64,000 bases of DNA from a virus. Positions 44,287-46,070 of this stretch are shown piece after piece; position 1 is the first letter of the stretch, and every line of letters starts with the position of its first letter. The position numbers and the translations under genes are program-made. Under the pieces are notes generated by a model. It made no database searches. It was not told the origin of the DNA and saw only the letters and a list, made by a program, of their open reading frames with translations. The stretch is from positions 650 through 64,649 of the IMG/VR virus record IMGVR_UViG_3300033145_001096; one strand, written 5' to 3'.

Positions 44287-46070
44287 TTTTTTGGTCTCCG
44301 TTTGATTTTCATTATTTTTCTAAATTCTTCTTCTCTGTCAGTGTCAGACATTTCCTCATATATTAATGTTGCACTTCTTGATTTATGACCAAGTAAAGAC
44401 TGTAAATTTTTCCCTTTGCCTCCTTTTTTCAAATAAGCAATCGAAAAACTATTTCCAGTTATAAATGCTTTGCCGTTTCTTTTGGCAATCCAAGTTCCAG
44501 TTTTAGTTGTGGGACACCAAATAACACCTTTATATTTTATTTTGGATATATTACGCTTATACAAACAACAGTAATCTCGATTGGATATATATGTTCTAAA
44601 TTTTCCTCCGTTAATTTTTATTGTAGCTCTATATCCAATACACAAACACAATGCTTGAAAAAAATTAAGTTTTTTAATATCTTGGTCGCAAAATTCCTTT
44701 TTACTTCCGTCTCCTAACATCATAGAGTTGTAAACTTCTTTTAATTCAGTTTGTTTTAATTTTAAAATCTTATATTTTGGTGAATTGTTTTCATTTATCC
44801 AATCATATATCCATTTAGTATCTTTTTTTAGTATTCTAAAAATTACCATTTGGTAGAGGTTTCCATTGAAAATATTTATTTTTTGTTTTTGAATATGCTT
44901 TGTAAATTTTAATCCAGATTTGATTAAAGTTTTTTCAATGATTTTACATTTGCTTTTATTGGCTGACAAAGATTGTGAGATAGTTACATCTTTCTGTTGT
45001 GAAATGTGTCCGTCTGTCATTATCCAACCCAATAAACTTGCTTTTTGTTTACCTATTGACAAATGCCCTTTTGTTTTTCCACTTAATAAATGCCAGCTTC
45101 TTCTATTTGGAGAGAAAGTTAACCATTTTTCAAATTTCATAGACTTCCACCCTACAAAATTATCATACGTTTTATTTCTTATCATTTTACCTTTATCTAC
45201 ATTTATTATAATATTATGATTAGAAGTTAGAATATAATCCAAACTATTATTTTTTATATGATTAAGATTTCCGTTATAAGTATATACGTTAATTCTCTGA
45301 ATATTATCTATTTCAATTTTTTTGGTATTTAAATTATAAGAAAATACCTTTTCTTCAATTTCTAATTCATTATATTTTTTCCATCCATTCTCTGTTAATA
45401 TTTCTGTATCTTCACTTACACAATGCCTAAAGGTATGGGGGTGTATATGTTTATTTAAATTTTCACTTAATATTTTACAATAGTATCTTACTGTTCCATC
45501 AGTGAAACCAAATACATCTTCGCCCGCAGTGTTATCAAAATATAATTGTATTAAATCTGCCATTTGGTTTGGATAAAATACTACAATAGGATTTTTAGCT
45601 TTTCTTTTTTGAATGTTTATTCTTTTATTTTTTAAGTCAAAATCTTGCTTCTTTAAATTAGCTATTTCCCCTACTCTTAAACCAGTATAAAACATTAAAT
45701 AAAATAAACATCTAACTTTTATATCATCTTTAAATAGCATATCAACAGAAGGTATAATTTCAGAAAGAAAAAAGTCTTCGCTAAAATAATTAGGAATTTT
45801 TCGTTCCGCTTGTTTGAATTTGGGAATTTTTATATCCAACTCAAATATTCTTACCCATTTTATAAGAGCCTTTTTATATTGATTAATAGTGTTTAATGGA
45901 TTTTCTAAATTAATAAAGAATTGATTAACATCTTCTTGAGATAAATTATTAAAATCCATTTTATCTGTTAAGAGATTGATACAAGATATATAAGACTTTA
46001 TTGTTTTCTTAGCAAGCCCGTCTAATATCATTTGCTCTTTAAATTTATTTAATAATTCTTTGATATTCAT
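44283..46070 (-). CDS. XerC/D-like tyrosine recombinase interrupted by an intein (mature ~271 aa)
   Basis: TGLRVGE (Arg), K, HPHTFRH|SF, LLGH, ATLIY (Tyr). Confidence 0.92.
   Translation of the reverse strand: MNIKELLNKFKEQMILDGLAKKTIKSYISCINLLTDKMDFNNLSQEDVNQFFINLENPLNTINQYKKALIKWVRIFELDIKIPKFKQAERKIPNYFSEDFFLSEIIPSVDMLFKDDIKVRCLFYLMFYTGLRVGEIANLKKQDFDLKNKRINIQKRKAKNPIVVFYPNQMADLIQLYFDNTAGEDVFGFTDGTVRYYCKILSENLNKHIHPHTFRHCVSEDTEILTENGWKKYNELEIEEKVFSYNLNTKKIEIDNIQRINVYTYNGNLNHIKNNSLDYILTSNHNIIINVDKGKMIRNKTYDNFVGWKSMKFEKWLTFSPNRRSWHLLSGKTKGHLSIGKQKASLLGWIMTDGHISQQKDVTISQSLSANKSKCKIIEKTLIKSGLKFTKHIQKQKINIFNGNLYQMVIFRILKKDTKWIYDWINENNSPKYKILKLKQTELKEVYNSMMLGDGSKKEFCDQDIKKLNFFQALCLCIGYRATIKINGGKFRTYISNRDYCCLYKRNISKIKYKGVIWCPTTKTGTWIAKRNGKAFITGNSFSIAYLKKGGKGKNLQSLLGHKSRSATLIYEEMSDTDREEEFRKIMKIKRRPKK
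44451..45422 (-). mobile_element. Intein (324 aa) with LAGLIDADG-type homing endonuclease
   Basis: Starts CVSEDTEILTENGW, ends VIWCPTT...FITGN followed by Ser+1; internal LLGWIMTDG and SMMLGDGS motifs. Confidence 0.93.

What the first reader, a model, noticed from the sequence alone, without database searches (positions are those of the whole stretch)
44451..45422. Intein inserted inside the catalytic HxxRH|S motif of a XerC/D-like recombinase
Seen: a 324-aa intein (Cys1...Gly-Asn, Ser+1) with both LAGLIDADG-like motifs; removing it restores HPHTFRHSF with the downstream LGH and Tyr. Established: inteins favour conserved active sites, mostly in replication proteins; recombinase hosts seem uncommon. 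Inference: recombinase activity depends on splicing and could act as a conditional switch.
Basis: partly seen in the sequence, partly recalled or inferred. Interest (0 to 1): 0.65.

Follow-up and report, generated by a model that had tools for sequence, protein, structure and literature searches.

The report
Homing intein inside phage recombinase
A self-removing, probably mobile protein insert (an intein with its own DNA-cutting enzyme) interrupts the catalytic helix of a phage's Xer-like recombinase. It is an ordinary kind of selfish element in a host enzyme for which I found no published description, and nothing shows that it acts as a switch.

Summary
Window 44451-45422 (minus strand) encodes a 324-aa intein (Cys1, TxxH, two LAGLIDADG motifs, Gly-Asn, Ser+1). 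It lies inside a 595-aa tyrosine recombinase gene (44283-46070) of an uncultured phage.

- **Clean insertion.** An 80%-identical, collinear relative lacks exactly these 972 bp. The spliced extein aligns without a gap to that 272-aa allele (81.5% identity).
- **Structure.** The intein model (pLDDT 95.5) matches endonuclease-bearing inteins. The insertion point lies inside the helix that carries the catalytic His and Arg, so activity should need splicing (inferred).
- **Gene still in use.** The extein is under purifying selection (dN/dS 0.15).
- **Family.** 38 phage-type metagenomic integrases carry the same intein, at this site or four residues upstream. Their inteins are more alike (mean 45%) than their exteins (27%).
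- **Gain in this lineage.** The query nests inside an intein-free clade, which fits gain by homing.
- **Closest tested relative.** The penultimate Gly is a lineage trait. The mycobacteriophage Bethlehem gp51 intein shares it and splices completely and fast.

I read this as a selfish homing intein that splices constitutively. The conditional-switch idea has no support.

This scan has noted inteins at this motif in CPR/DPANN Xer genes on other DNA. Nine literature searches found no paper on a natural one. Novelty: a new member of a known kind.

The parts
44283..46070 (-). Precursor gene: 595-aa tyrosine recombinase interrupted by an intein (stop codon 44283-44285)
   Evidence: single ORF. PF00589 61.8 bits (cut-off 27.1) in two pieces, plus PF13495. 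PHROG 1 integrase, E 1e-26.
46078..46083 (-). Shine-Dalgarno AAGGAG, 7 nt upstream of the ATG
   Evidence: read directly from the sequence.
45423..46070 (-). N-extein, aa 1-216: SAM-like N-domain and first part of the catalytic domain, with Arg132, Lys157, His212, Arg215 and His216
   Evidence: It aligns without gaps to the intein-free alleles P0110-P0118.
44451..45422 (-). Intein, aa 217-540 (324 aa): HINT splicing domain with an inserted LAGLIDADG homing endonuclease
   Evidence: It is absent as an exact 972-bp indel from the collinear relative L002.
45384..45422 (-). Splicing block A, starting with the Cys1 codon (45420-45422)
   Evidence: Cys is present in 37 of 39 family members.
45216..45227 (-). 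Splicing block B, TxxH (Thr282...His285 of the precursor)
   Evidence: His is invariant and Thr/Ser is present in all 39.
45009..45035 (-). First LAGLIDADG motif (LLGWIMTDG), with catalytic Asp353 (intein Asp137)
   Evidence: Asp is invariant in 39 of 39. The endonuclease part of the model matches I-DmoI and I-SceI.
44706..44732 (-). Second LAGLIDADG motif (YNSMMLGDG), with catalytic Asp454 (intein Asp238)
   Evidence: invariant.
44451..44534 (-). Splicing blocks F and G: Trp-Cys519 (block F position 4), then Thr-Gly-Asn540
   Evidence: Cys and Asn are invariant and Gly is present in 38 of 39. The mycobacteriophage RDF and DNMT inteins have the same VWC...TGN|S ends.
44286..44450 (-). C-extein, aa 541-595: Ser+1, then His562 (LGH) and the catalytic Tyr571
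   Evidence: (PF00589 profile 135-169).

Best explanation
This is a complete, splicing-competent intein of the standard (class 1 type) architecture that carries a LAGLIDADG homing endonuclease. It sits in the box II motif (HxxRH|S) of a phage-encoded, XerA-like tyrosine recombinase.

The gene is translated as a 595-aa precursor. The HINT domain then excises the 324-aa intein and joins His216 to Ser541, which restores a 271-aa recombinase with all six catalytic residues. The standard pathway would use Cys217 as first nucleophile, Ser541 as second and cyclisation of Asn540.

The insert interrupts the helix that carries His-II and Arg-II and separates these from His-III and the Tyr nucleophile. 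The precursor should therefore be inactive, so the recombinase depends on splicing.

The freed intein is a site-specific endonuclease that cuts intein-free alleles of the recombinase gene in co-infecting relatives and copies itself in by repair (homing). It is a selfish passenger gained by this phage lineage after it split from intein-free relatives. Splicing is most likely fast and constitutive.

Shown here: the anatomy, the exact indel, the homology, the fold, the conservation, the tree placement and purifying selection on the extein. Inferred: splicing itself, endonuclease activity, homing, and inactivity of the precursor.
For: - **Anatomy and coordinates:**
- **Split host domain:** the Pfam integrase domain is split at profile positions about 134-138.
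- **Intein-free alleles:** P0110-P0117 are 52-82% identical to the spliced extein and align without a gap across the junction.
- **Exact indel:** a 972-bp insertion lies in an about 80% identical, collinear region of L002.
- **Intein fold:** the model has pLDDT 95.5 and pTM 0.92. It matches the TliVMA, PhoVMA, PI-SceI and PI-PfuI inteins at E 5.6e-12 to 1e-8, and its endonuclease part matches I-DmoI and I-SceI.
- **Family:** 38 integrases carry the homologous intein. His69, Asp137, Asp238, Cys303 and Asn324 are invariant and Cys1 is present in 37 of 39.
- **Endonuclease kept:** the endonuclease region is as conserved as the HINT region (0.457 against 0.416 mean pairwise identity).
- **Intein versus extein:** inteins average 45% pairwise identity and extein catalytic domains 26.5%.
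- **Tree:** the query is nested in three starred intein-free clades (96, 99 and 99) in the extein tree.
- **Extein still selected:** dN/dS is 0.148 against the intein-free allele, with one conservative unique change at otherwise invariant columns.
- **Insertion point:** it lies inside helix 212-225 of the intein-free allele model, where pLDDT is about 94. That model matches XerA 5hxy at E 3e-13.
- **Closest tested relative:** the same lineage (VWC...TGN|S ends) includes the Bethlehem gp51 RDF intein. That intein has a penultimate Gly, splices completely in E. coli and shows endonuclease-related toxicity (PMC5050341).
Against: - No experiment on this protein exists; splicing and cleavage are inferred.
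- The penultimate residue is Gly rather than the canonical His, and block F has Cys where standard inteins usually have Asp (PMC2807308). The details of catalysis may therefore differ.
- The characterised relative is only about 22% identical.
- Pfam Intein_splicing is below its cut-off (24.3 against 35.8 bits) and LAGLIDADG_3 gives no hit.
- No near-identical donor intein was found; the best is 53% identical. The time and source of the gain are unknown, and repeated precise loss in relatives is not formally excluded.
Confidence: 0.8

Rival explanations
1. Conditional switch. Splicing is gated by a condition such as redox state, temperature or substrate DNA, so the intein times the activity of the recombinase during infection. 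One route would be a reversible disulfide between Cys1 and the neighbouring block F Cys519.
For: Conditional protein splicing exists in other inteins; the mycobacterial DnaB and SufB intein papers listed (PMC6195587; PMC4547236, not read here) are examples. Two conserved cysteines (Cys1, Cys519) should lie close together, because block F position 4 reaches the N-terminal scissile bond in class 3 inteins (PMC2807308). A disulfide-bonded precursor conformer was seen in a mutant of the related RDF intein.
Against: Eight close relatives lack the intein altogether, and the query is nested among them, so the recombinase needs no such control. The invariant endonuclease motifs point to selfish spread. 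The wild-type related RDF intein with the same Gly-Asn end was fully spliced at time zero. Nothing in the sequence marks regulation.
Confidence: 0.07
2. Dead insertion. The intein no longer splices, so the recombinase gene is a pseudogene, or only the endonuclease still works.
For: The non-canonical penultimate Gly and the absence of a block F His. Pfam scores are below threshold. The query's end branch in the extein tree is about twice its sister's (0.15 against 0.066).
Against: The 595-codon frame is uninterrupted and has a strong Shine-Dalgarno. All splicing and recombinase catalytic residues are intact. dN/dS is 0.148, and there is one conservative unique change at otherwise invariant columns. 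The Gly is conserved in 38 of 39 family members and in a relative shown to splice.
Confidence: 0.04
3. Hybrid class 1 / class 3 chemistry. [quoted passage not shown]
For: Cys at block F position 4 is invariant in 39 of 39, Thr at block G position 5 is present in 37 of 39, and residue +1 is Ser or Thr. These are two of the three WCT residues plus the usual class 3 +1 residue (PMC2807308). Two family members have Ala or Leu at position 1 yet keep intact exteins (P0034, P0020).
Against: Cys1 is present here and in 37 of 39 members. The TxxH of block B is canonical. Block B position 12 is Ile, not the Trp that class 3 inteins require. Kelley 2016 places the related RDF intein in class 1.
Confidence: 0.09

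Closest known systems
Mycobacteriophage Bethlehem gp51 (RDF / metallophosphoesterase) intein and the cluster F DNA methyltransferase inteins (Kelley et al. 2016, mBio, PMC5050341)
   Same: Phage-borne, full-length, Cys1, with a LAGLIDADG endonuclease. The VWC...TGN|S block F/G ends include the penultimate Gly and Ser+1. tblastn E 1e-12 to 7e-23. The gp51 intein splices completely and its endonuclease is toxic in E. coli.
   Different: Only 22-26% identical. The host proteins differ (phosphoesterase and methyltransferase, not a tyrosine recombinase). The phages and their GC content differ.
Endonuclease-bearing inteins with solved structures: TliVMA/PhoVMA (7qsu, 7qss, 7qst), PI-SceI (1vde, 1lws), PI-PfuI (1dq3)
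   Same: The same two-part architecture of a HINT horseshoe plus a LAGLIDADG domain. Foldseek E 5.6e-12 to 9e-9, query-normalised TM 0.56-0.65.
   Different: 8-15% sequence identity. Those inteins are larger (360-540 aa, with extra DNA-recognition regions), sit in archaeal or yeast ATPase, RNR and polymerase hosts, and end in the canonical His-Asn.
Archaeal XerA tyrosine recombinases (Thermoplasma acidophilum 5hxy, Pyrococcus abyssi 4a8e): the host protein
   Same: The intein-free allele P0110 matches XerA best by sequence (E 1.8e-17), by NCBIfam (NF040815, 117 bits) and by fold (E 3e-13). It has the same R-K-H-R-H-Y catalytic set and a small two-domain size.
   Different: It scores below the XerA equivalog cut-off (117 against 220 bits). 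It is phage-encoded and, in this lineage, linked to a RuvB-like gene. Its role (dimer resolution, integration or other) is unknown.
Intein-bearing Xer recombinases of CPR bacteria and DPANN archaea
   Same: The host family is the same. According to the earlier AI notes, the HxLRH|S box is also the same. An ESM Atlas cluster of 61 'XerC' proteins of 722 aa (commonest phylum Minisyncoccota) carries PF00589 and LAGLIDADG_3 in all members and is the nearest cluster to this protein (feature score 0.96, TM 0.65).
   Different: Those are chromosomal and their inteins are longer (about 420 aa against 324). I could not obtain a sequence, so common ancestry of the inteins and identity of the site were not tested here. 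My profile and genome searches recovered phage-type contigs only.
Engineered split-intein recombinases (Cre, phiC31 integrase; for example PMC6868429)
   Same: Recombinase activity is made to depend on protein splicing.
   Different: Those are artificial, trans-splicing and designed as switches. This one is natural, cis-splicing and, on present evidence, not regulatory.

Membership tests
Intein, standard (class 1) type | Nucleophile (Cys/Ser) at intein position 1 | tested here: met
   Cys217; Cys in 37 of 39 family members.
Intein, standard (class 1) type | Block B TxxH | tested here: met
   Thr282-Ser-Asn-His285; His invariant and Thr/Ser in all 39.
Intein, standard (class 1) type | C-terminal Asn followed by Ser/Thr/Cys at +1 | tested here: met
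   Asn540 | Ser541; Asn invariant.
Intein, standard (class 1) type | Penultimate His (common, not obligatory) | tested here: not met
   Gly539, conserved in 38 of 39. The related Bethlehem gp51 intein with Gly splices completely, and Gly-to-His slows it (PMC5050341).
Intein, standard (class 1) type | HINT fold with both termini in the splicing domain | tested here: met
   AF2 pLDDT 95.5; Foldseek to the TliVMA, PI-SceI and PI-PfuI inteins.
Intein, standard (class 1) type | Pfam Intein_splicing (PF14890) above the gathering score | tested here: not met
   24.3 bits against a cut-off of 35.8. The model is insensitive to this lineage; only some relatives pass.
Intein, standard (class 1) type | Precise in-frame insertion relative to an intein-free allele | tested here: met
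   Gapless junction against P0110-P0118; exact 972-bp indel against L002.
Intein, standard (class 1) type | Protein splicing actually occurs | not testable with these tools
   Only indirect evidence: extein dN/dS 0.148 and intact catalytic residues.
Class 3 intein (WCT) | No nucleophile at position 1 | tested here: not met
   Cys217.
Class 3 intein (WCT) | Trp at block B position 12 | tested here: not met
   Ile two residues after the block B His; the column is variable and never Trp in the family.
Class 3 intein (WCT) | Cys at block F position 4 and Thr at block G position 5 | tested here: met
   Cys519 invariant; Thr538 in 37 of 39. The definition is from PMC2807308.
LAGLIDADG homing endonuclease | Two LAGLIDADG motifs, each ending in an acidic residue followed by Gly | tested here: met
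   LLGWIMTDG and YNSMMLGDG; both Asp invariant in 39 of 39.
LAGLIDADG homing endonuclease | LAGLIDADG fold | tested here: met
   The endonuclease part of the model matches I-DmoI (target-normalised TM 0.60) and I-SceI.
LAGLIDADG homing endonuclease | Pfam LAGLIDADG_3 (PF14528) hit | tested here: not met
   No hit for the protein or in the whole 69.9-kb record. Some relatives do hit.
LAGLIDADG homing endonuclease | Cleaves the intein-free allele | not testable with these tools
   Candidate target: the L002 sequence around the junction.
Tyrosine recombinase (Phage_integrase, PF00589) | Pfam domain above the cut-off | tested here: met
   61.8 bits against 27.1, in two pieces that flank the intein.
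Tyrosine recombinase (Phage_integrase, PF00589) | Catalytic Arg-Lys-His-Arg-His-Tyr set | tested here: met
   Arg132, Lys157, His212, Arg215, His562 and Tyr571.
XerA / XerC / XerD (NCBIfam equivalogs) | Score above the equivalog cut-off | tested here: not met
   The intein-free allele P0110 scores 117 bits on NF040815 (cut-off 220) and 65-70 bits on XerC/XerD (cut-offs about 330). It is Xer-like, not a Xer orthologue.

The most novel reading that the evidence does not exclude
The intein is not just a passenger. Its splicing is gated, for example by a reversible disulfide between Cys1 and the invariant block F Cys519, so the RuvB-linked recombinase becomes active only at a particular stage or redox state of infection. 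That would make it a natural counterpart of engineered intein-controlled recombinases.
Probability: 0.07. Interest if true: 0.7.

Novelty: new member of a known kind. Interest (0 to 1): 0.4.

Why it matters
Inteins are known mainly from replication, repair and nucleotide-metabolism enzymes. A site-specific tyrosine recombinase is a host I could not find in the literature, although databases hold dozens of examples.

- **Wider intein range.** This case adds viral genomes to the earlier scan notes on CPR and DPANN chromosomes. It also comes with a matched intein-free allele (about 80% DNA identity), which is the natural target to test homing.
- **Insertion-site behaviour.** The integrase inteins occupy at least two sites four residues apart in one catalytic motif. 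One relative has a second, different intein between His-III and the catalytic Tyr. That makes the group a compact system for studying how inteins shift insertion sites.
- **Practical use.** A compact intein that by inference splices at His|Ser inside a recombinase active site, together with its endonuclease, could interest protein engineers who now build such constructs by hand.

It does not change how phage recombination is understood.

Tried and rejected
- **The search for related loci in genome contigs with A1 and A2** failed for lack of a conserved stretch. With the smaller A3 it gave only 8 loci, none a CPR Xer with an intein. The link to the CPR/DPANN Xer inteins is therefore untested.
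- **The 70-kb contig of the intein-free allele P0112** could not be fetched.
- **A profile search with all 39 intein-bearing integrases** found no cellular Xer with this intein, only phage-type contigs and the same intein lineage in other hosts.
- **P0107 (662 aa)** looked like a possible distant intein-bearing integrase. It is a tandem double integrase without an intein.
- **Co-conversion tract near the junction.** There are 8 mismatches in the 30 nt around the site against about 5 expected at 83% identity. That is not distinctive, so I make no claim.
- **A shared endonuclease target at sites a and b.** The flanks of six alleles share little beyond the CAT (His) codon at -1 and a Ser codon at +1.
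- **Promoter-like sites** are no more frequent than in shuffled sequence (38 against 32.4 +/- 5.2).
- **Literature.** Nine full-text searches and reading of the two large intein surveys (PMC4760082; bioRxiv 10.1101/2025.01.02.630785) found no natural intein in an integrase or Xer. The surveys' supplements were not held, and Tori and Perler 2011 (PMC3133030) was not held.
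Full report
**Observation.** The window comes from an IMG/VR virus record of 69,856 bp that CheckV estimates to be 74% complete. It is AT-rich (about 28% GC) and most of it is coded on the minus strand. At 44283-46070 on the minus strand lies one uninterrupted 595-codon ORF, preceded by AAGGAG 7 nt before the ATG. They begin with Cys, contain TSNH, LLGWIMTDG and YNSMMLGDG, and end in Thr-Gly-Asn. The next residue is Ser. The flanks read HPHTFRH before the insert and SFS after it, with LGH (560-562) and Tyr571 downstream.

**More than chance.** Pfam finds the Phage_integrase domain in two pieces: residues 114-220 on profile positions 19-138, and 541-575 on profile positions 135-169. 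The whole protein scores 61.8 bits against a cut-off of 27.1, so the domain is interrupted at one profile position. tblastn against 50,697 phage records matches residues 217-541 to annotated intein-containing genes. These include mycobacteriophage DNA methyltransferases, metallophosphoesterases and a DNA polymerase I, with E down to 7e-23. An AlphaFold2 model of the insert, built on 39 homologues, has mean pLDDT 95.5 and pTM 0.92. Foldseek matches it to endonuclease-bearing inteins: TliVMA 7qsu (E 5.6e-12), PhoVMA, PI-SceI and PI-PfuI. Its middle part matches I-DmoI and I-SceI. Pfam's own intein models are weak here. Intein_splicing scores 24.3 bits against 35.8, and LAGLIDADG_3 gives no hit. 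I read this as low sensitivity of those models for this lineage.

**The empty site exists.** I searched with the N-extein among shorter proteins and found nine intein-free recombinases of 267-272 aa. The spliced extein (271 aa, built in a script) aligns to them without a gap across the junction. It is 81.5% identical to P0110 and 52-74% identical to seven others. P0110 lies on three metagenomic contigs. The longest, L002, is collinear with window 41471-48522 at about 70-86% DNA identity. The window has two extra segments relative to it: exactly the 972 bp of the intein, and about 850 bp between the RuvB-like gene and the gene upstream of the recombinase.

**The host protein.** The extein carries Arg132, Lys157, His212, Arg215, His562 and Tyr571. 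The intein-free allele matches archaeal XerA best:
- by sequence, 5hxy at E 1.8e-17;
- by NCBIfam, NF040815 at 117 bits, below the 220-bit equivalog cut-off;
- by fold, 5hxy at E 3e-13, followed by integron integrase, Tn1549 Int, XerH, Cre and lambda Int.

It is therefore Xer-like but not a Xer orthologue. In its model (pLDDT 86.5) residues 212-225 form one helix, and the insertion point falls after its sixth residue, where local pLDDT is about 94. A 324-residue insert there separates Arg-I, Lys, His-II and Arg-II from His-III and the Tyr nucleophile. That the precursor is inactive is an inference from this geometry and has not been measured.

**Is the gene alive?** Against the L002 allele the extein has dS 0.73 and dN 0.108, giving dN/dS 0.148. 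It shows only one unique change (Leu14Met) at columns that are invariant in the eight close relatives. A gene whose product could not be released by splicing would not be expected to stay under such constraint. This is indirect support for splicing.

**A family of intein-bearing phage integrases.** A search of 5.8 billion clusters returned 38 proteins of 481-920 aa that match both the extein and the intein. An exhaustive phmmer search over 1.84 billion representatives found about 30 such 50%-identity clusters among the best 150 hits, by a rough motif count. The contigs I inspected look like phage: long runs of small unannotated genes, methylases, a family B polymerase, a D5-type primase, one VirSorter contig and one 172-kb contig. 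IMG/VR holds two more integrase cases, plus about 70 viral contigs with the same intein lineage in other genes.

Conservation across the 39 inteins:

| Residue (intein numbering) | Conservation |
|---|---|
| His69 (block B) | invariant |
| Asp137, Asp238 (LAGLIDADG motifs) | invariant |
| Cys303 (block F) | invariant |
| Asn324 (C-terminal) | invariant |
| Cys1 | 37 of 39 |
| Gly323 (penultimate) | 38 of 39 |

The endonuclease region is as conserved as the HINT region (0.457 against 0.416 mean pairwise identity). That argues for an endonuclease still under selection.

**Horizontal spread.** Among the intein-bearing proteins the inteins are 39-53% identical to the query, while their exteins are only 16-31% identical. 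Mean pairwise identity is 45% for the inteins against 26.5% for the extein catalytic domains. In an extein tree of 48 sequences the query sits inside three nested, well-supported clades (SH-aLRT 96, 99, 99) that otherwise hold eight intein-free alleles. The simplest reading is one gain in the query's lineage; several precise losses would be the alternative. My intein-free set was found with the query's own N-extein, so it samples only this clade. No close donor was found, and the best intein match is 53% identical. The intein's GC content (25.8%) equals that of its host gene. The gain therefore post-dates the split from the P0110 lineage but need not be recent in absolute terms.

**Splicing chemistry.** The intein has the class 1 hallmarks: Cys1, TxxH, a terminal Asn and Ser+1. 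Two features depart from the textbook, namely the penultimate Gly and a Cys at block F position 4, where standard inteins usually have Asp (PMC2807308). Both are lineage traits. The mycobacteriophage RDF (Nhonho gp52 type) and ShiLan methyltransferase inteins end in the same VWC...TGN|S pattern. Kelley et al. 2016 showed three things about the Bethlehem gp51 RDF intein, which also has a penultimate Gly (PMC5050341):
- it splices completely by time zero in E. coli;
- changing Gly to His slows splicing to more than 5 h for about 50% completion;
- its endonuclease was toxic.

That is the closest experimental anchor, although it is only about 22% identical to this intein. The Cys at F:4, the Thr at G:5 and a Ser/Thr at +1 make up two thirds of the class 3 'WCT' signature. 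The block B Trp is absent and Cys1 is present, so class 3 membership fails. Whether Cys519 takes part in catalysis cannot be told from sequence.

**The switch idea.** I found nothing that supports regulation. Close relatives lack the intein, the endonuclease is conserved as in a selfish element, and the tested relative splices constitutively. The only handle is the pair Cys1/Cys519, which could in principle form a disulfide. I give this reading 7%.

**Comparison with what is known.** Nine full-text searches returned only engineered split-intein Cre or phiC31 systems. The broad intein survey of 2015 (PMC4760082) and the 2025 actinophage survey do not mention integrases in their main text. Supplements were not available. 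Databases do hold such proteins. The ESM Atlas has a 61-member cluster of 722-aa 'XerC' proteins, with Minisyncoccota as the commonest phylum among the 13 members of known phylum. Every member has both Phage_integrase and LAGLIDADG_3, and it is the nearest cluster to this protein. Earlier follow-ups in this scan describe inteins at the same HxLRH|S box in chromosomal Xer genes of CPR bacteria and DPANN archaea. I could not obtain those sequences, so I tested neither whether the phage and cellular inteins share ancestry nor whether the site is identical.

**Verdict.** This is a real, complete and apparently functional homing intein in the catalytic helix of a phage Xer-like recombinase. It is a known kind of element in an undescribed but recurrent host.

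Noticed in passing
Relatives P0012, P0018, P0021, P0023, P0024, P0029, P0032, P0037, P0040 (e.g. L009:6001-7572, L011:6186-7706): The same intein lineage occupies a second site four residues upstream: H|intein|(S/T/C)xRH, after the first His of the HxxRH box rather than after the second. Inteins of the two sites are intermixed in the intein tree, with at least two switches forced by supported branches. Both sites have His at -1 and Ser/Thr/Cys at +1.
   Followed up: partly
P0015 (920 aa, ENA contig of 10,178 bp): This integrase carries two inteins. One is of this lineage at HTLRH|C...GN|S. The second is a different one (Ser1 ... His-Asn|Thr; PF14890 58 bits, LAGLIDADG_3 35 bits), inserted between the LLGH motif and the catalytic Tyr.
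   Followed up: partly
P0034 and P0020 (intein position 1): Two family members have Ala or Leu instead of Cys at intein position 1. Both keep intact extein catalytic motifs and the invariant block F Cys. They may splice through the block F Cys (class 3-like) or may be decaying.
   Followed up: no
window 46520-47370: About 850 bp here is absent from the collinear relative L002. It holds a zinc-finger-like ORF (47040-47375) and a nuclease C-terminal fragment (46518-46787; PHROG Holliday junction resolvase/endonuclease, E 5e-10). It looks like the remnant of a second, free-standing endonuclease insertion next to the recombinase operon.
   Followed up: partly
window 42556-42954 (minus strand): A 132-aa HNH endonuclease ORF (PHROG HNH families, E about 1e-7) lies 1.3 kb downstream of the recombinase. 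It is another likely selfish nuclease in this region.
   Followed up: no
window 47372-48502; L002:173-1306; L010:4488-5627; L022:2795-3697: The RuvB-like gene lies just upstream of the recombinase in the window, in the intein-free relative L002 and in two intein-bearing relatives, but not in six other intein-bearing contigs. In L010 the RuvB is 62% identical to the window's, yet the recombinase extein is only 28% identical, which suggests a swap of the recombinase module.
   Followed up: partly
Intein lineage in other hosts: The ...FITGN|S/T intein lineage with a penultimate Gly is very widespread. The whole-precursor search gave 9,371 representatives at E<=1e-3, counting integrase-only as well as intein matches. 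Hosts include phage N6/N4 methyltransferases, RNR, MCM, DNA polymerases A and B, DUF87 ATPases, sugar epimerases and glycosyltransferases, and proteins labelled Aenigmarchaeota and Nanoarchaeota.
   Followed up: no
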